Notes: generated by a model not told the origin, from the letters alone. A DNA stretch of 7,678 nt from a virus (IMGVR_UViG_3300029417_000062:1-7678), one strand, 5' to 3'; positions 599 to 7,678 are shown, counted from the first letter of the stretch. Program-made: numbers and translations.

Positions 599-790
599 TT
601 AAAGACCTGCCGGGATTTCGATATTATACTGGTGAATAACTTTATCGACCGGGTAACAGTTACCGGGAATTTTCTGTTCGGTTGCTGCAGTCATACACTC
701 CTGCATTGTCCTGTGAACACTGACTGCAATATCAACTGGCTCTCCGGAAACAAGAAAAACTGTCAGAACAAGCGCAAATGCTGAATTCAT
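599..790 (-). CDS. ydfD: YdfD-like small protein (63 aa) with N-terminal hydrophobic segment; prophage lysis/toxic membrane protein
   Basis: ATG at 790..788 overlaps the dicB stop (789..787) in an ATGA arrangement. Product MNSAFALVLTVFLVSGEPVD... has a signal/TM-like N-terminus. Length and position match my memory of Qin YdfD. The six-frame track shows a longer ORF (599..844) whose upstream extension lies inside dicB. Confidence 0.75.
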   Translation of the reverse strand: MNSAFALVLTVFLVSGEPVDIAVSVHRTMQECMTAATEQKIPGNCYPVDKVIHQYNIEIPAGL

Positions 791-975
791 TGTGCACATC
801 CTTTTGGCATCAGACGTAAACGAGCCAGCATTGAAACAATGCATATTTTATTTAATAGCTCCCGTTCTTGTTTTCTCTTGTTAATGGCATCTTCAGTAAA
901 TACAGGGTTACTGATAGTGACACCAATTTCAAAACAACCTTCAGACGTATTAACGTTTGGTAATAACGTTTTCAT
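787..975 (-). CDS. dicB: DicB cell-division inhibitor (62 aa; acts through MinC in K-12)
   Basis: ATG at 975..973 with GAGGA 7 nt upstream. Product MKTLLPNVNTSEGCFEIGVTISNPVFTEDAINKRKQERELLNKICIVSMLARLRLMPKGCAQ matches my recollection of DicB in length and sequence. Lies downstream of dicF and upstream of ydfD as in Qin. Confidence 0.8.
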   Translation of the reverse strand: MKTLLPNVNTSEGCFEIGVTISNPVFTEDAINKRKQERELLNKICIVSMLARLRLMPKGCAQ

Positions 976-1145: not shown

Positions 1146-1203
1146 AAAACGGCGGCAGAGCAGTCACGGAGTAAAACTGATACCGCCAAACGTCACCAGA
1201 AAA
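1146..1203 (-). ncRNA. dicF: DicF small RNA (53-nt core 1203..1151 plus U-tract)
   Basis: Reverse complement of 1151..1203 reads TTTCTGGTGACGTTTGGCGGTATCAGTTTTACTCCGTGACTGCTCTGCCGCC, followed by GTTTTT. This matches the DicF sequence as I remember it, including the GGCGG...CCGCC terminator stem. Position between the ydfB/C region and dicB is the canonical one. Confidence 0.85.
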
Positions 1204-2386: not shown

Positions 2387-2794
2387 TTATTGATGCTTGT
2401 TGCGTTTGCGAGCCTCTAATAGCTCGGTGAACAGGCGATTAAAATTCTCAACGCGGGCGCGGAGTTCGCTGAGTTGTGCTTGTTGCTCTGATTTAGGAAG
2501 TGCGCGATACAAACGCAGCATCTCTAACTCATCTTCCGATAAGTCTAAGGCACTATCGAGTGAAACAGGGGGAGCTGGTGTTTTGTCCTCGTCGCCAAAC
2601 AGTATCCAGGTTGGTGAACATTGCAATACCTCGGCGAGGCGATGCAAATTTTGCCCGCGCGGGGCTGTATGGTCACTTTCCCATAATGAAATTGATGAGC
2701 CAGATACGCCAGCAGCTTTGCTTAAACCGTTTTGACTTAAACCTACCTGCTTACGTCTTTCTCTAATGCGTTGACCTAAAGTTTTCTCGTTCAT
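2387..2794 (-). CDS. dicA: DicA-like HTH (XRE-family) prophage repressor, 135 aa
   Basis: Product MNEKTLGQRIRERRKQVGLSQNGLSKAAGVSGSSISLWE...VLQCSPTWILFGDEDK... has an N-terminal HTH and the VLQCSPTWILFGDEDK block I recall from DicA. Divergent from the Cro-like gene. Start chosen at ATG 2794..2792 (135 aa); the track ORF uses an ATG 17 codons upstream (2845), which lies in the operator region. Confidence 0.9.
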   Translation of the reverse strand: MNEKTLGQRIRERRKQVGLSQNGLSKAAGVSGSSISLWESDHTAPRGQNLHRLAEVLQCSPTWILFGDEDKTPAPPVSLDSALDLSEDELEMLRLYRALPKSEQQAQLSELRARVENFNRLFTELLEARKRNKHQ

Positions 2795-2871
2795 ATTTAG
2801 ATATCTTAATAACCCTTGACTTGAGATTCCTTGAGTGATTAGCATTGAGAAAACTCAATACTGGAGGTGCG
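2795..2871. promoter_or_regulatory. Divergent dicA/dicC control region (immunity switch) with operator-like repeats and a candidate rightward promoter
   Basis: -35 TTGACT (2816-2821), 18-bp spacer, -10 TAGCAT (2840-2845). Operator-like TTGAGAAAACTCAATACTGG at 2845-2864, and TTGAG repeated at 2821, 2831 and 2845. SD GGAGG at 2863-2867 precedes the dicC ATG at 2872. No evident SD for dicA. Confidence 0.5.
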
Positions 2872-3099
2872 ATGTTTAAATCAGACGTAATTAATTTTTA
2901 CGGTACGAAAGCCAAAGTAGCGAAAGCTGCTGGCGTTGACCCATCTGCTGTTTCTCAATGGCAAGAGCTGGTTCCTGAAGGTCGCGCGATGCGTCTACAG
3001 GAGGCATCTGGCGGCGAGCTTCTGTATGATCCCAAGGTTTATGACGAATATCGTAAGACGAAGCGGGCGGGGCGGTTGAACAATGAAAATCACTCCTGA
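2872..3099 (+). CDS. dicC: DicC-like (Cro-type) small DNA-binding regulator, 75 aa
   Basis: ATG at 2872 with GGAGG 4 nt upstream. Product MFKSDVINFYGTKAKVAKAAGVDPSAVSQWQELVPEGRAMRLQEASGGELLYDPKVYDEYRKTKRAGRLNNENHS; the C-terminal half matches my recollection of DicC. Divergent from the repressor. The track ORF starts at TTG 2845, inside the operator, which is unlikely. Confidence 0.85.
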   Translation: MFKSDVINFYGTKAKVAKAAGVDPSAVSQWQELVPEGRAMRLQEASGGELLYDPKVYDEYRKTKRAGRLNNENHS

Positions 3100-3604
3100 A
3101 CAGGCTCGTGAGGCTCTGGATGCCTGGATATGTCGACCAGGAATGACACAGGAGCAGGCGACGATATTAATCACTGAAGCATTCTGGGCTTTGAAAGAGC
3201 GCCCGAACATCGATGTTCAGCGTGTCACAGATGAAGGTGGCGCGGTTGATCAGCGAGCGCTTGGCGTTAATCGAGTGAAGATATTCGAACGCTGGAAGGC
3301 TATCGACACCAGGGATAAGCGTGAAAAGTTCACGGCGCTAGTGCCTGCAATTATGGAGGCTATCCGGATTAATGATTTCAGGTTGTATCGTGAAATTAGT
3401 GACGGAAAAAGCATCACGTACATGATCGCCGGGTTAAACAAAGAATATGGCGATGTGGTGGAGTCCGGACTGCTTTTTGCTGATCCTGCCGTAGTGGATC
3501 GTGAAACTGACGAACTTATAGAAAAAGCAATTGCTTTCAAACTTGCGTATCGACAGCAATACCAACAAAAAGCTGGATGGAATTATGAGCCTTCTTTTTG
3601 CTGA
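3083..3604 (+). CDS. YdaT-family prophage protein (173 aa), second gene of the rightward immunity/replication operon
   Basis: ATG at 3083 overlaps the dicC 3' end by 17 nt. Position after the Cro-like gene and the motif ...FTALVPAIMEAI... resemble Rac YdaT (from memory). Confidence 0.75.
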   Translation: MKITPEQAREALDAWICRPGMTQEQATILITEAFWALKERPNIDVQRVTDEGGAVDQRALGVNRVKIFERWKAIDTRDKREKFTALVPAIMEAIRINDFRLYREISDGKSITYMIAGLNKEYGDVVESGLLFADPAVVDRETDELIEKAIAFKLAYRQQYQQKAGWNYEPSFC

Positions 3605-4550
3605 ACGCCCACTGGTTATAAACACACAGCTTGCGATGAAGATTGGCTTAAATGAAGCCATTGTGTTGCAGCAGTTGCATTACTGGTTGAGAGATACCAA
3701 TTCCGGCATGGAATGTGATGGTGTTCGCTGGATTTACAACACAACGGAACAATGGCTGGAACAGTTCCCATTCTGGTCAGAGTCAACGTTAAAGCGCGCG
3801 TTTGCAAGTCTGAAAACGCTGGGGCTTTTGCGTTGTGAAAAGCTCAATAAATCAAAGCGCGATATGACCAATTTCTACACGATTAACTATGGAAGCGAGC
3901 TTTTAGATGATGGCAAATTGAGCGAATCCATCGGTTCAAAATGCGCCGCTCCATCAGGTCAAAATGACACGATGGAAGAGGTCAAAATGAAACGCTCCAT
4001 TGGTTCAAAACGACCCAATGTCATCGGGTCAAAATGGCCCGATGATCCTACAGAGAATACAACAGAGATTACTACAGAGAATAAAAACACTTTTCGTCCG
4101 GAAGCTTCGCAACCGGACCCGCAGACGGCTGAACAGGATTTTTTAATCCGGCACCCTGGCGCAGTTGTGTTTAGTGCGAAAAAACGCCAGTGGGGTAGCC
4201 AGGAGGATCTGGCGTGTGCGCAGTGGATATGGGGGCGGATCGTGGGTCTCTACGAACAGGCCGCCAGTGATGATGGCGAGATCATGCGACCAAAAGAGCC
4301 TAACTGGACTGTCTGGGCCAATGATGTGCGCACAATGCGGATGCTGGATGGCAGAAGCCACAGACAAATTTGTGAAATGTTTGGTCGGGTACAGCGGGAT
4401 CCATTCTGGGTAAAAAACATCATGAGCCCGTCAAAGCTCCGCGAAAAATGGGACGAACTGGTCATCCGCCTGGGGCGTTCACCTGTACAGCGTTGTGTTA
4501 ATCATATTTCTGAACCGGATACAGAAATTCCGCCTGGTTTCAGAGGATAA
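3585..4550 (+). CDS. Lambda O-like replication initiator (321 aa) with the origin (iterons) inside its coding sequence
   Basis: C-terminal block TVWANDVRTMRMLDGRSHRQICEMFGRVQRDPFWVKNIMSPSKLREKWDELVI resembles the lambda O C-terminus as I recall it (AGWANDIRLMRERDGRNHRDMCVLFRWACQDNFWSGNVLSPAKLRDKWTQLEI). An iteron array sits mid-gene. Start ambiguous: ATG 3585 (chosen, overlaps the ydaT end) versus TTG 3531 used by the track. Confidence 0.85.
   Translation: MSLLFAERPLVINTQLAMKIGLNEAIVLQQLHYWLRDTNSGMECDGVRWIYNTTEQWLEQFPFWSESTLKRAFASLKTLGLLRCEKLNKSKRDMTNFYTINYGSELLDDGKLSESIGSKCAAPSGQNDTMEEVKMKRSIGSKRPNVIGSKWPDDPTENTTEITTENKNTFRPEASQPDPQTAEQDFLIRHPGAVVFSAKKRQWGSQEDLACAQWIWGRIVGLYEQAASDDGEIMRPKEPNWTVWANDVRTMRMLDGRSHRQICEMFGRVQRDPFWVKNIMSPSKLREKWDELVIRLGRSPVQRCVNHISEPDTEIPPGFRG
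3928..4096. repeat. Candidate phage replication origin: five direct iterons (about 22-25 bp period) followed by an A-rich tract
   Basis: Units start near 3928, 3951, 3974, 3997 and 4021, with core GGT(T)CAAAA(T/C)G, similar to the TCAAAACG core of lambda ori iterons. Followed by a purine/A-rich tract 4047-4096 (ACAGAGAATACAACAGAGATTACTACAGAGAATAAAAACAC). Confidence 0.6.
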
Positions 4551-4590
4551 GTTTTGATTTCAGGTCATGAGGTAATTTTAAGGGGGACTT

Positions 4591-4992
4591 GTGGCAAAAG
4601 TTTTTACACAAGAAGAGCGGGAAAAAATTAAAGGGCAGGTGGTGGAACTCGTGCGCCAGAGCGGTCGTGAGACGTTACGGCAACTGGAAGCTAAAACAGG
4701 TGCGACTAGATATCTGATGAGCGTTCTTGCCAGAGAGCTGGTAGCCAGTGGCGATGTATACAACTCCGGCTACGGGTTATTCCCGTCTGAACAGGCGCGT
4801 AAGGACTGGCAAAACGCCCGCAAAAAACTCTCGAGGGCAAAGGTGAAGAAAACAGCTGTGGTTGATCCGGACCTTATCTGGTCGTTACCTGATGGAGAAA
4901 TACGTCGCTACGACAGTCGCCTAAACATAATCTGTCGCGAGTGCCGGATGAGTGAAGTTATGCAGCGCATACTGGCATTTTATCAGGGATAA
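4591..4992 (+). CDS. Hypothetical protein, 133 aa, possible HTH/winged-helix; occupies the position where a helicase loader (P/DnaC-like) would be expected
   Basis: GTG start at 4591 with AGGGGG 4 nt upstream. Coherent protein-like ORF (MAKVFTQEEREKIKGQVVELVRQSGRETLRQLEAKTGATRYLMSVLARELV...). No similarity to lambda P that I can recognise. Confidence 0.6.
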   Translation: MAKVFTQEEREKIKGQVVELVRQSGRETLRQLEAKTGATRYLMSVLARELVASGDVYNSGYGLFPSEQARKDWQNARKKLSRAKVKKTAVVDPDLIWSLPDGEIRRYDSRLNIICRECRMSEVMQRILAFYQG

Positions 4993-5088
4993 TGTTAGGT
5001 ATTTTAGACGTTACTAGATTAAAAAGCATTAGTTCAGGAGTGAATTGACATTCTCATTTTTCATGGCACAGGGTAGATCTGGCGTGGT

Positions 5089-5114
5089 TGTCCGCTTTGT
5101 GCCAAAAGCGGACA
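5089..5114. terminator. Hairpin between convergent genes; possible bidirectional terminator
   Basis: Perfect 10-bp stem TGTCCGCTTT (5089-5098) / AAAGCGGACA (5105-5114) with a 6-nt loop. Flanking U-tracts are weak on both strands, so terminator function is uncertain. Confidence 0.3.
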
Positions 5115-5210
5115 TCGAATAATTTCAGCAGCACTCAACCTTATTAACCAAATCGCCTCAACTCATATGGACATGCATCCGGAAGTGCCAACTTCGTAAA
5201 CTTATTCACT

Positions 5211-6591
5211 TTAAGTCTGAGCCTCACTCTCTTGGCCATAAGTGGCTTGCCAGTATCTCGCCGTAGGGTTCATTAGAATGTGCAATACAAGCCACCATGC
5301 AAAAATGCAGGGAGGTTGATTGTAGTAACCGGCAGGCACATATCCGTGAGCTAGTTGATTTCGTAAATCACCATAGATTTTATCTACCAGTAAGGCCTGA
5401 AGATTGCCAATTATGTCTACGCCGAAAGCTTCAATAATCAGTGGATTATCTAGTAATCCCTTGAGTCCATTTCGCTCTTGCGAACCGTCCCCGTGAAGCT
5501 GCGATGGTTCCTCACCTTTAATTTTAGCCACATATCTCAGACTATTTTCGATCTGGGGAATCAACACGTGGCATGCCGTCATAAAATCTCCATTGAAACC
5601 GCAAACCATACCCTTGATGAAAAACTCTTCATGCCCAAACGGGATGAAGGGATGATTGATGAACATATCGCGAAAAAACGCCTCCGAGATTGGATATTTC
5701 ATTGTGATCTCATCTGTAGCAGGAATAATTTGCCCAGCTACTGCCAACTCATGGTCGATACGCATTCTCGTCATCATTATGGGCCAAATAACTGCCCCAT
5801 TTGCATCATCAATCCCCAATCCTGCGGGTATGCGAGCAAGTGTCATTCCCTCATGATCAATATGTGTTGATCCAAACATCCAAGCTATGCTGTTGGCCTT
5901 TTGTTCTATTGCTTGAGCCTTAAGTCTCTCAATGCTGGTTGGCCGACAGACCAGCATCGCAAGTCTGAAAACCATATCAAACATATCTCTTCCGACTACC
6001 CGACTCTTGGCTTGATGGACAATCTCACTAATATCTTGAGGGGGAGACTGAAGGATAGACATCTGGTGACGGGATTCGATTTGGTAATCACGCATTTCTT
6101 CATACAGCGCAAGACGTTCTATTCGGGTTCCTGGAATATTAGCCAGTGCTTCAATAGCATTCTGCATGCAGGCTGCCGAAATCATACCGCCATCTTGGAA
6201 TTTTGACTCTTCCAGATGTGTATCGGCAAGAAGCCGCCAGAATTCAAACTGTGTATCTCTGTCACAGCACCTATTCGCAATCGTGATTGCGGTTTTACAG
6301 GCATCGACGGCAAATGAAAATAATTTTTGAGCCAGATAGTTTTTTGTCAGAAACAGGAGTTCCTGGGCAATAAAAGATGGCTCACTCACTTTACAGTCGA
6401 TATCGAGTTGCAGGAGTCGCAGCGGATAAGGTGAATCGCCTTGTTCTCTGGTACGTTCATACTCTGCTAGTAGATGTGCCGAAAGCTGATCAAATTCATC
6501 CCTGAAATCAGTATTCTTTCGAAAAAAACAACACAGCCTAAGCGCACGCTCTAGGCGTTCTAAAGCACTAACCCACGTCCCTTGCGATGTC
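5211..6591 (-). CDS. C-terminal portion (about 460 codons) of a large protein with a HEPN-like Rx4HxY motif; 5' end interrupted by the IS. Candidate abortive-infection/toxin RNase.
   Basis: Continuous minus-strand ORF ending at 5211. RNQLAHGY is encoded at 5340..5363 (R 5361-5363, H 5346-5348), about 45 residues from the C-terminus, and fits the HEPN Rx4-6H / HepT-type Rx4HxY signature. The six-frame ORF (5211..6776, 521 aa) takes its first 61 codons from IS sequence. No in-frame ATG occurs in the first ~136 native codons, so the native N-terminus is missing. Confidence 0.6.
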
Positions 6592-6633
6592 TGAACCGCC
6601 CCGGGTTTCCTGGAGAGTGTTTTATCTGTGAAC
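6592..6633. repeat. IS terminal inverted repeat region (orfB-proximal end)
   Basis: Begins with 5'-TG and lies immediately beyond the orfB stop (6634), as expected for an IS3-family end. The other end is outside the window, so the pairing cannot be confirmed. Confidence 0.5.
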
Positions 6634-7524
6634 TCAGGCTGCCAGATCATCGTTTCCGATGGAAGCATAATAAGCTTTTTCTGCTTCTGCCGGAGGAGTA
6701 TGGCCCAGCCTTTCCAGCAATCGTCGATTGTTATACCAGTCCACCCACGTGAGTGTGGCCAGTTCCACTTCTGCACGGTTTTTCCAGCTCTTACGGTGTA
6801 TTACCTCCGCTTTGTAAAGACCATTGATGCTCTCCGCCATCGCGTTGTCATACGAGTCGCCTGTACTTCCTGTTGATGCCAGTAATCCGGCTTCCTTAAG
6901 CCGCTGTGTGTAGGCCAGCGATACATACTGAGAACCTTTATCACTGTGATGGACCGTGCCGGACGGTCGACGGGCCCATAACGCCTGCTCCAGTGCATCC
7001 AGCACGAATGTCGTTTCCATGGACGATGAGACCCGCCACCCCACGATGTATCCGGCAAACACATCAATGATGAACGCCACATAGACGAAGCCCCGCCATG
7101 TGCTGACGTAAGTAAAATCAGCCACCCACAGCTGGTCAGGTCGTTCTGCCACGAACTGACGGTTTACGCGGTCGCCTGCGGCAACGGCTTTCCGGCTGAT
7201 GGTCGTACGGACCTTTTTACCCCGGAGAACACCGGCAAGTCCCATAACCGCCATGAGACGTGCCACAGTGCATCTGGCCACTCTGATACCTTCCCGTAAC
7301 AACTGACGCCAGACTTTACGCACACCGTATACCTTGTGATTTTCATCGTATACGCGCTGTATCTCTTTCTTCAGCCAGTCATCGCGCTGCGCACGGGCAC
7401 TGCGTTTATCCGGATGATGTCGCTGTTGCTGACAGTGGTAATACGTTGACGGGGCAATATGCAGTTCGCTGCATAGCGGTCCGACCCCGTACTGCTCACG
7501 CAGCTTATCCAGCAGTGGCATCAT
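6634..7524 (-). CDS. IS3-family transposase OrfB (DDE integrase-like catalytic domain), 296 aa
   Basis: Product [22 protein letters not shown]... contains D (WVADFTYV), D (HHSDKGSQY) and E ([15 protein letters not shown]) motifs. The start overlaps the orfA stop in the -1 frame. Confidence 0.9.
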
Positions 7525-7678
7525 TTTTTCCAGAGGCGGTCGAACTCCGCCTTCGCAAAATAAGCGGAAGCCTGGCGAAGGATATCGTTACTGCGGCGCA
7601 GTTCACGATTTTCACGTTCCAGCTCTTTCAGACGCTGACGTTCAGCGGTGGTGAGCCCGCCATCACCGCCTCCGGTAT
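7521..7678 (-). CDS. IS3-family transposase OrfA, C-terminal 52 codons (partial; 5' end outside window)
   Basis: Minus-strand frame reads ...[51 protein letters not shown] (leucine-zipper-like), stop at 7523..7521, overlapping the orfB ATG (7524..7522). Confidence 0.85.

What the first reader, a model, noticed from the sequence alone, without database searches (positions are those of the whole stretch)
5211..6591. Large convergent gene with C-terminal HEPN-like Rx4HxY motif, a candidate uncharacterised abortive-infection/toxin effector
An ORF of at least 460 codons runs opposite to the phage early-right operon, a typical moron/defence position. Its C-terminal ~110 residues read like a HEPN RNase domain, with RNQLAHGY (Rx4HxY, encoded at 5340..5363) close to the C-terminus. 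I could not match the upstream ~390 residues to any family I recognise (no Walker motifs, no RT motif). It may be the effector of a poorly characterised prophage-borne defence or toxin system; its N-terminal part and any partner gene lie beyond the IS and outside this window.
Basis: partly seen in the sequence, partly recalled or inferred. Interest (0 to 1): 0.75.

Follow-up and report, generated by a model that had tools for sequence, protein, structure and literature searches.

The report
IS-broken prophage HEPN defence-candidate gene
This is the 3' three-quarters of a prophage gene for a 595-residue predicted RNase (helical-repeat body plus C-terminal HEPN domain) already catalogued as an untested anti-phage defence candidate, and in this genome it has been split by an insertion sequence, so it is catalogued rather than new.

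Summary
A minus-strand ORF ends at 5211 and runs to an IS629/IS1203-type element that starts at 6592. RNQLAHGY is encoded at exactly 5340-5363.

IS-free alleles (e.g. E. coli 118UI, 100% identical) give a 595-aa protein, WP_000340970.1. Its parts are DUF7380, a TPR-like helical solenoid and DUF4209. The window keeps residues 137-595. The 1,310-bp IS sits after nt 410 with a 3-bp duplication, and the 5' fragment lies just beyond it, followed by hokD. There is no partner gene.

The HEPN call is right:
- R546 and H551 are invariant across 49 homologues down to about 25% identity.

None of this is new. DUF4209 was assigned to the HEPN superfamily in 2013 (the "C6orf70" family). The whole protein matches PADLOC candidate PDC-S39 (E 8e-103). 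DefensePredictor lists this protein cluster as a predicted defence gene. Distant homologues occupy the P2 old/tin hotspot. I found no experimental test.

Best reading: a stand-alone, sensor-fused HEPN RNase for abortive infection, inactivated here by the IS. Interest is low to moderate.

The parts
5211..6591 (-). 3' portion (stop codon, codons 137-595 and 1 nt of codon 136) of the 595-codon DUF7380/DUF4209 (PADLOC PDC-S39) gene, cut off from its 5' end by an IS
   Evidence: ORF. 100% identical to the intact gene of E. coli 118UI, WP_000340970.1. PDC-S39 E 8e-103 over nearly the full length.
5214..5813 (-). C-terminal HEPN domain region (residues 396-595); the Pfam DUF4209 match covers residues 484-573 (5280-5549)
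5340..5363 (-). RNQLAHGY: predicted catalytic R-x4-H motif (R546 = 5361-5363, H551 = 5346-5348, G552 = 5343-5345)
   Evidence: R546, H551 and G552 are invariant in 49 sequences down to about 25% identity. R and H are also kept in the P2-phage homologues.
5535..5555 (-). Second conserved block, Q482-I-E484-N-S486-L-R488 ('PQxENSxR'), in the long helix before the beta-hairpin of the HEPN domain
   Evidence: Q482, E484, S486 and R488 are invariant in alignment A1. One P2 homologue deviates, with EGMVR.
6063..6590 (-). Retained part (residues 137-312) of the TPR-like alpha-helical solenoid (full extent about residues 119-312)
6589..6591 (.). One copy of the 3-bp target-site duplication (GAC on the gene strand)
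   Evidence: In CP164011.1 the 5' fragment ends at gene nt 410 and the 3' fragment starts at nt 408. The two flank a 1,310-bp element.
6592..7678 (-). IS629/IS1203-type IS3-family element, same orientation as the gene, running off the window end (full length 1,310 bp). Contains orfB at 6634-7524 and the frameshift pseudoknot at 7450-7566.
   Evidence: Terminal inverted repeat at 6592. rve, HTH_21 and rve_3 domains. ALIL pseudoknot, 120 bits. RefSeq names matching copies 'IS3-like element IS1203 family transposase'.
5211..6668 (-). Chimeric ORF (485 aa from the ATG at 6668; 479 aa from the ATG at 6650) that starts in the IS end and reads in frame into the truncated gene. Annotated as a protein in public assemblies; expression unknown.
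   Evidence: Exact products are on record in GCA_005388865.1, in an ENA metagenome and in CP164011.1. No obvious Shine-Dalgarno sequence upstream of either ATG.

Best explanation
The feature is a pseudogenised copy of a prophage cargo gene.

Shown:
- The intact gene encodes a 595-aa cytoplasmic protein with three parts: an N-terminal DUF7380 domain, a TPR-like helical solenoid, and a single C-terminal HEPN domain of the DUF4209/'C6orf70' family.
- The HEPN domain carries an invariant R-[NH]-x3-H-G motif.
- In this genome an IS629-type element inserted after nt 410. It separates residues 1-136 from the rest, and those residues include a nearly invariant A-R-x-x-D motif.
- In Enterobacteria the gene is a single-gene unit with no conserved partner.

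Inferred:
- The intact protein is a stand-alone abortive-infection sensor-effector.
- The DUF7380/TPR body holds the HEPN domain inactive until it binds a phage-derived trigger.
- Two protomers then pair their HEPN domains to form the composite R-x4-H active site that HEPN RNases need.
- The resulting metal-independent RNase cuts cellular and phage RNA (tRNA, rRNA or mRNA) and stops translation before the phage completes its cycle.
- The interrupted copy in this window is most likely non-functional.
For: Identity and architecture:
- 100% DNA identity to the intact allele.
- Pfam DUF7380 (2e-34) and DUF4209 (3e-8).
- PADLOC PDC-S39, E 8e-103, covering 539 of 595 residues.

HEPN:
- The DUF4209 = C6orf70 family is listed with the R-x4-6-H motif conserved ('Yes') and predicted to be catalytically active, 'fused to TPR' (PMC3710099).
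- R546, H551 and G552 are invariant.

Solenoid.

Defence context:
- Cargo slot of a Qin-like prophage between the DUF977 gene and hokD.
- A different lambdoid cargo slot in Enterobacter kobei, and an IS/CBASS island in Oleispira.
- Small islets between housekeeping genes in V. cholerae and Pseudomonas.
- Distant full-length homologues between gpA and gpQ of a P2-like phage, and in P2-EC46.
- 'DUF4209' listed among P2-locus systems in Rousset 2022 Table S5.
- DefensePredictor log-odds of 4.3-8.1 for E. coli DUF4209 proteins, including a member of this 90% cluster.

Distribution: patchy, 149 of 5,426 complete E. coli genomes, all at least 99% identical.

IS insertion: 1,310 bp with a 3-bp duplication; the 5' fragment is present beyond it.

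Lost conserved residues: A104, R105, D108, A124 and Y128.
Against: - No experiment on this family was found. PDC-S39 appears only in inventories. It is absent from DefensePredictor's table of cloned systems and from Rousset's table of evaluated systems, and from two studies that tested other PDC candidates.
- Dimerisation, the trigger and the RNA target are inference from other HEPN systems.
- No terminator or promoter consensus was found in the 4900-5300 gap.
- Several neighbourhoods contain no recognisable defence gene.
- The truncated frame is still intact and could in principle be translated from IS-internal ATGs.
Confidence: 0.6

Rival explanations
1. It is an addiction or toxin module that stabilises the mobile element rather than an anti-phage system. 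The HEPN RNase is a toxin held in check in cis by its own N-terminal body, or by a labile factor. Its benefit is to the prophage or islet, not to host immunity.
For: The structurally closest solved proteins are HEPN toxins of HEPN/MNT toxin-antitoxin pairs. In E. coli the gene sits next to hokD, a type I toxin. In cyanobacteria it is embedded in toxin-antitoxin-like modules, with PIN downstream and once Phd/YefM upstream.
Against: No MNT or other antitoxin gene is adjacent in the enterobacterial, Vibrio, Pseudomonas or Oleispira loci. Toxin-antitoxin and abortive-infection roles are not mutually exclusive. Placement in the P2 old/tin hotspot and the DefensePredictor scores favour defence.
Confidence: 0.15
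2. It serves the prophage's own biology, for example RNA processing during induction, exclusion of rival prophages only, or a counter-defence role. It would not be a general host abortive-infection system.
For: It is found in lambdoid and P2-like prophages at early or late cargo positions. It is transcribed opposite to the early-right operon, as lysogen-expressed cargo genes ('morons') are.
Against: Many family members lie in non-phage islets between housekeeping genes. The family is large and taxonomically broad: 7,422 representatives at 50% identity.
Confidence: 0.1
3. The HEPN domain is non-catalytic, a ligand-binding or regulatory module as in MtlR or the kanamycin-nucleotidyltransferase C-terminal domain. 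The protein would then be a scaffold or regulator.
Against: R and H of the R-x4-H motif are invariant over about 25% identity divergence, together with an invariant Q/E/S/R block. The family is listed with the R-x4-6-H motif conserved ('Yes') and is predicted to be catalytically active. Non-catalytic HEPN families typically lose the motif (established knowledge of the superfamily).
Confidence: 0.08
4. The truncated copy in this window is still expressed as an IS-gene chimera (479-485 aa). It would retain, or have deregulated, HEPN activity.
For: The frame is open from IS-internal ATGs at 6668 and 6650 through the junction. The IS transposase is co-oriented, so read-through transcription is possible. 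The 3' part has no mutations relative to intact alleles.
Against: There is no recognisable Shine-Dalgarno sequence before either ATG. Conserved N-terminal residues are lost. Zero divergence is equally explained by a recent insertion. Other strains carry independent disruptions, consistent with plain decay.
Confidence: 0.05

Closest known systems
PADLOC phage-defence candidate PDC-S39 (DUF7380 + DUF4209 single-gene candidate)
   Same: Full-length HMM match, E 8e-103, residues 43-581 of 595. Single-gene organisation. The P2-hotspot homologues match the same models.
   Different: Nothing structural. The copy in the window is interrupted by an IS. The PDC label is a computational candidate, and I found no validation.
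C6orf70/ERMARD-type HEPN family (Pfam PF13910 DUF4209; Anantharaman et al. 2013)
   Same: Pfam hit above the gathering score, conserved R-x4-H, fusion to TPR-like repeats as described for the bacterial members.
   Different: The eukaryotic members are described as ER-membrane proteins with a transmembrane helix. This protein has no Walker motif and no convincing transmembrane segment. The 2013 paper reports R-M-related operons for bacterial members, and none was seen in the loci sampled here.
HEPN toxins of HEPN/MNT type II/VII toxin-antitoxin systems (e.g. PDB 7ae2, 5yep, 8xdj)
   Different: Those are proteins of about 130-140 aa neutralised by an adjacent MNT nucleotidyltransferase. Here the HEPN domain is the tail of a 595-aa protein and no MNT gene is nearby.
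Sensor-fused single-protein HEPN defence systems (e.g. DefensePredictor DS-11, CBS+HEPN; AbiJ and AbiD/F-type Abi proteins)
   Same: One polypeptide combining a putative sensing or regulatory domain with one HEPN nuclease domain. DS-11 loses defence when HEPN catalytic residues are mutated (PMC13092281). DefensePredictor's remote-homology column gives AbiJ C-terminal domain as the nearest known hit for E. coli DUF4209 proteins (probability 62-73%, query coverage about 0.2).
   Different: Different sensor domains (DUF7380/TPR-like versus CBS or AbiJ N-terminal domains). Homology is only at HEPN-superfamily level. This family has not been tested.
Csm6/Csx1 CRISPR-associated HEPN RNases
   Different: No CARF domain and no CRISPR association. 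The sensor here is a helical solenoid.

Membership tests
HEPN superfamily | All-alpha, four-helix up-and-down bundle fold | tested here: met
HEPN superfamily | Conserved R-x4-6-H motif at the start of the last core helix | tested here: met
   R546 and H551 are invariant in 49 of 49 sequences, and R and H are kept in the two P2-phage homologues. The motif lies in short helix 545-551, just before the terminal long helix.
HEPN superfamily | Metal-independent endoribonuclease activity through a composite active site formed by two HEPN domains | not testable with these tools
   Only one HEPN domain is seen per chain. No multimer prediction or biochemistry was available.
Pfam PF13910 (DUF4209 / 'EMARD_N'; C6orf70 HEPN family) | HMM score above the gathering threshold | tested here: met
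   34.0-37.7 bits against a cutoff of 22.3, covering profile positions 1-88 of 89.
Pfam PF24098 (DUF7380) | HMM score above the gathering threshold | tested here: met
   Intact allele: 119.3 bits against a cutoff of 27, residues 4-166. The window copy keeps only the tail of this domain: 13.4 bits, below the cutoff.
PADLOC PDC-S39 | Full-length match to the PDC-S39 HMMs as a single-gene unit | tested here: met
   E 8.4e-103 and 2.6e-102. No conserved neighbour in enterobacterial, Vibrio or Pseudomonas loci.
Validated anti-phage defence system / abortive infection | Experimentally shown reduction of phage plating, and infection-triggered growth arrest | not testable with these tools
   No report found.
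HEPN/MNT toxin-antitoxin system | Adjacent minimal nucleotidyltransferase (MNT) antitoxin gene | tested here: not met
   No nucleotidyltransferase-family gene flanks the gene in any of the loci examined.
STAND/NLR-like (AVAST-type) TPR sensors | Central P-loop NTPase (Walker A and B) | tested here: not met
   No Walker A or B pattern. No NTPase Pfam hit even at E up to 10.
IS3 family, IS629/IS1203 type (the interrupting element) | About 1.3 kb, terminal inverted repeats, orfA/orfB with a -1 frameshift pseudoknot, DDE (rve) transposase, 3-bp target duplication | tested here: met
   1,310 bp with a 3-bp duplication and inverted repeats. rve domains. ALIL pseudoknot, 120 bits. RefSeq annotation 'IS1203 family'.

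The most novel reading that the evidence does not exclude
The DUF7380-TPR-HEPN (PDC-S39) family is a genuine, widespread stand-alone phage sensor-RNase. Its HEPN module is the bacterial counterpart of eukaryotic ERMARD/C6orf70. That would add another immune-type module shared between bacteria and eukaryotes, with a new kind of NTPase-free solenoid sensor. A less likely add-on is that the IS-generated N-terminal truncation leaves a deregulated, still-translated nuclease.
Probability: 0.45. Interest if true: 0.55.

Novelty: already known. Interest (0 to 1): 0.3.

Why it matters
The family is large: 7,422 representatives at 50% identity, nearly all about 600 aa. It is carried by prophages and islets in Enterobacteria, Vibrio, Pseudomonas and cyanobacteria, and three independent computational approaches flag it as defensive. 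No experiment was found. An intact, near-identical allele sits in the standard strain E. coli ATCC 25922, so the prediction could be tested directly. A positive result would add a single-protein, NTPase-free solenoid-plus-HEPN immune sensor, and it would give a functional handle on the eukaryotic ERMARD HEPN domain. The copy in this window adds little by itself. It is an IS-inactivated allele, useful mainly as an example of how such cargo genes are knocked out.

Tried and rejected
- Literal translation of 5211-6591 gave stops because the range is 1 nt out of frame. This was resolved with the ORF list.
- A profile search of PDB sequences found only marginal TPR hits (E at least 0.02).
- NCBIfam gave no hit. 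PHROGs gave only families of unknown function.
- No complete RefSeq E. coli genome has this IS junction. The first look-up, with the 521-aa GTG-start ORF, found nothing. Alternative ATG starts found the source contigs.
- Literature searches for DUF7380, WP_000340970, P2-EC46 and ERMARD+HEPN returned nothing.
- A partner gene was considered and rejected for the enterobacterial clade. The V. cholerae downstream 160-aa ORF has no family hit and is unrelated to the cyanobacterial PIN partner.
- HEPN/MNT and STAND/NLR membership were considered and rejected (no MNT gene, no P-loop).
- No consensus promoter or terminator was found in the convergent gap.

Full report
**1. What is in the sequence**

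The window is the early region of a Qin-like lambdoid prophage of E. coli. It contains:
- a DicA/cI-like HTH repressor gene (2387-2845, minus strand);
- a rightward operon of a cro-like gene, a YdaT-family gene, a replication-like gene and a DUF977 gene (2845-4992, plus strand).

Converging on this operon is a minus-strand ORF whose stop codon is at 5211-5213. Comparison with an IS-free allele shows that the authentic gene sequence ends at 6591. The terminal inverted repeat of an IS3-family element (TGAACCGCCCCGGG...) begins at 6592.

The finding's coordinates are therefore exact for the gene/IS junction. They are 1 nt out of frame, which explains the stops.

The window retains the stop codon, 459 sense codons (residues 137-595) and one base of codon 136. 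An open frame of this length has a chance probability of about 2.6e-10.

**2. The intact gene and the insertion**

Window 5000-6591 is 100% identical to E. coli 118UI (NZ_CP032515.1). There the gene is 1,788 nt and encodes WP_000340970.1, 595 aa, annotated "DUF4209 domain-containing protein". It lies between the DUF977 gene and hokD/rem. From my own knowledge of K-12, this is the slot that holds relBE-flxA in the Qin prophage.

The window is 100% identical to a draft contig (GCA_005388865.1) and 99.97% identical to the complete genome CP164011.1. In CP164011.1:
- the 5' fragment of the gene (nt 1-410) lies immediately on the other side of a 1,310-bp element;
- the element is flanked by a 3-bp duplication (GAC);
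- hokD and rem follow.

This is a simple transposition into the gene.

The element has rve-type transposase domains, the IS3-family ALIL frameshift pseudoknot (120 bits) and RefSeq labels of "IS1203 family". Calling it IS629-type rests on my recognition of its terminal sequence and transposase.

None of 5,426 complete RefSeq E. coli genomes has this junction.

**3. What the protein is**

Family assignments:
- Pfam assigns DUF7380 to residues 4-166 (2e-34) and DUF4209 to residues 484-573 (3e-8, above the gathering score).
- PADLOC's candidate family PDC-S39 matches residues 43-581 at E 8e-103.
- NCBIfam has nothing, and PHROGs has only families of unknown function.

An AlphaFold2 model built on 49 homologues is confident (mean pLDDT 89.6). 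It shows:
- a small N-terminal alpha/beta region;
- a C-terminal helical domain.

There is no Walker motif and no convincing transmembrane segment.

**4. Testing the HEPN claim**

R-x4-H alone is not evidence. Shuffled versions of this protein contain 0.95 such motifs on average, and the real protein has a second one at residue 411 that is not conserved. Three things make the 546-551 motif meaningful.

(i) Conservation. R546, H551 and G552 are invariant across 49 sequences that diverge to about 25% identity, together with a Q482/E484/S486/R488 block. R and H also persist in two about 23%-identical P2-phage homologues.

- HEPN toxins 7ae2, 5yep and 8xdj;
- AF0298 and YutE;
- Csm6;
- the HEPN domain of AbiA;
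- Las1, MtlR and RnlA;
- the kanamycin-nucleotidyltransferase C-terminal domain.

(iii) Literature. Anantharaman et al. 2013 had already placed DUF4209 in the HEPN superfamily as the "C6orf70 family". They list its R-x4-6-H motif as conserved ('Yes') and predict it to be catalytically active, "fused to TPR", with bacterial members and a eukaryotic branch traceable to LECA (PMC3710099).

The invariant residue after H is G552.

**5. Is it a defence gene?**

Nothing I found tests this experimentally. The computational and contextual evidence is consistent.

*Predictions:*
- PADLOC lists the family as candidate PDC-S39. It appears only in inventories. Two studies that tested other PDC candidates did not include it.
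- DefensePredictor's tables list E. coli DUF4209 proteins as "predicted novel defense gene", with log-odds of 4.3-8.1. One of these, WP_001429192.1, is a member of this protein's 90% cluster.
- None of these proteins appears in DefensePredictor's table of cloned systems.

*P2 hotspot:*
- Distant full-length family members sit between gpA and gpQ of a P2-like phage. From my own knowledge this is the old/tin cargo hotspot. Another is ORF612 of P2-EC46.
- Rousset et al. 2022 list "DUF4209" among P2-locus systems (Table S5) but not among the systems they evaluated.

*Other contexts:*
- a different lambdoid cargo slot in Enterobacter kobei;
- an IS/group-II-intron/CBASS island in Oleispira;
- small islets between housekeeping genes in V. 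cholerae and Pseudomonas.

*Distribution:*
- The gene is patchy in E. coli: 149 of 5,426 complete genomes, all chromosomal and at least 99% identical, including ATCC 25922.
- The 90% cluster also includes Enterobacter and Klebsiella members.
- The family as a whole is large: 7,422 representatives at 50% identity with E up to 1e-3, and the top 150 are all full-length matches of about 600 aa.

**6. Mechanism**

Shown: the domain architecture, the HEPN fold, the invariant motif, single-gene organisation in the enterobacterial clade, and disruption by the IS.

Inferred from what is established for HEPN RNases (a composite active site formed by two R-x4-6-H motifs, and sensor-domain control as in Csm6 or the CBS-HEPN system DS-11):
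- The DUF7380/TPR body senses a phage product or holds the nuclease off.
- Activation lets two HEPN domains pair.
- RNA cleavage arrests translation, giving abortive infection.

I put about 0.95 on the identity and architecture statements and about 0.55 on the defence-RNase mechanism.

The copy in this window lacks residues 1-136, including the nearly invariant A104, R105, D108, A124 and Y128. The first in-frame ATG of authentic sequence is at residue 272. Public annotations- or 485-aa chimeras starting at ATGs inside the IS end, but neither ATG has an obvious ribosome-binding site. I regard this copy as a recent pseudogene.

Independent knock-outs exist elsewhere:
- an IS1203-type insertion at another site and in the opposite orientation in strain 720632;
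- a deletion in strain A10.

**7. Rivals**

- A prophage or islet addiction toxin. The structural neighbours are toxin-antitoxin toxins, hokD is next door, and the cyanobacterial loci are toxin-antitoxin-like.
- A phage-serving function.
- A non-catalytic HEPN regulator.
- An active chimeric truncation.

Each is scored in the rivals section. None is excluded by experiment. The non-catalytic reading is disfavoured by the invariant catalytic-type residues.

**8. Comparison with the known, and novelty**

The protein is a member of Pfam DUF4209 and DUF7380 and of PADLOC PDC-S39. Its sequence is already in RefSeq. It is not a HEPN/MNT toxin (no MNT neighbour), and it is not a STAND/NLR-type sensor (no NTPase).

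I therefore rate the feature as already known in the catalogue sense, though not experimentally. Interest is low to moderate (0.3). Most of that interest lies in the fact that a large, easily testable family remains untested.

Noticed in passing
window 1150-1201 (-): DicF antisense sRNA (Rfam RF00039, 72.5 bits). It lies upstream of dicB and ydfD (about 599-975, minus strand), as expected for a Qin-like prophage.
   Followed up: partly
window 7450-7566 (-): ALIL pseudoknot (RF01497, 120 bits), the programmed -1 frameshift signal of the IS3-family element. The IS runs off the window end at 7678.
   Followed up: partly
L014:10926-11348, L015:10321-10755, L017:3688-6330: In the cyanobacterial clade a PIN-domain (VapC-like) gene follows the DUF4209 gene directly. 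It overlaps by 4 bp in Trichocoleus and Nostoc, and the two PIN proteins are 73% identical. In one metagenomic locus a Phd/YefM antitoxin gene precedes it, so the big gene sits inside a toxin-antitoxin-like module. This holds in 3 of 3 informative loci. It is absent from the enterobacterial, Vibrio and Pseudomonas loci.
   Followed up: partly
L010:4041-5972 (phage vB_EcoM-569R9) and L011:220-2058 (P2-EC46 ORF612): About 23%-identical, full-length PDC-S39 homologues are carried by P2-like phages. In the complete phage the gene lies between gpA and gpQ (the old/tin cargo hotspot). One of them has EGMVR instead of the otherwise invariant ENSxR block.
   Followed up: partly
L018:2340-5440 (E. coli 720632) and L019:4091-4576 (E. 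coli A10): Independent inactivations of the same gene. One is a second IS1203-type insertion at a different site and in the opposite orientation, inside the HEPN-coding part. The other is a deletion removing the 3' part along with the prophage immunity and replication region.
   Followed up: partly
L012:16964-19782 (Oleispira antarctica): A CBASS-like cluster (Cap15-type effectors, CD-NTase, mCpol) lies about 6 kb from the DUF4209 gene. The region is full of IS4 and IS66 transposases and group II intron reverse transcriptases.
   Followed up: no
window 5211-6668 (-): Public assemblies annotate the IS-gene chimera as a 485- or 479-aa 'DUF4209' protein starting at ATGs inside the IS end. Database entries of these lengths are artefacts of the insertion, not natural isoforms.
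   Followed up: yes
window 3083-3604 (+) and 4591-4992 (+): The early-right operon carries a YdaT-family 'toxin' homologue (Pfam 1.2e-5) and a DUF977 protein (6e-27). The 339-aa ORF between them (3531-4550) has no significant Pfam family.
   Followed up: no
H71, NZ_CP009072.1 3486765-3488145 (E. coli ATCC 25922): The widely used reference strain ATCC 25922 carries an uninterrupted allele, 99.8% identical over the window's 1,381 nt. It is a convenient source for experiments.
   Followed up: no
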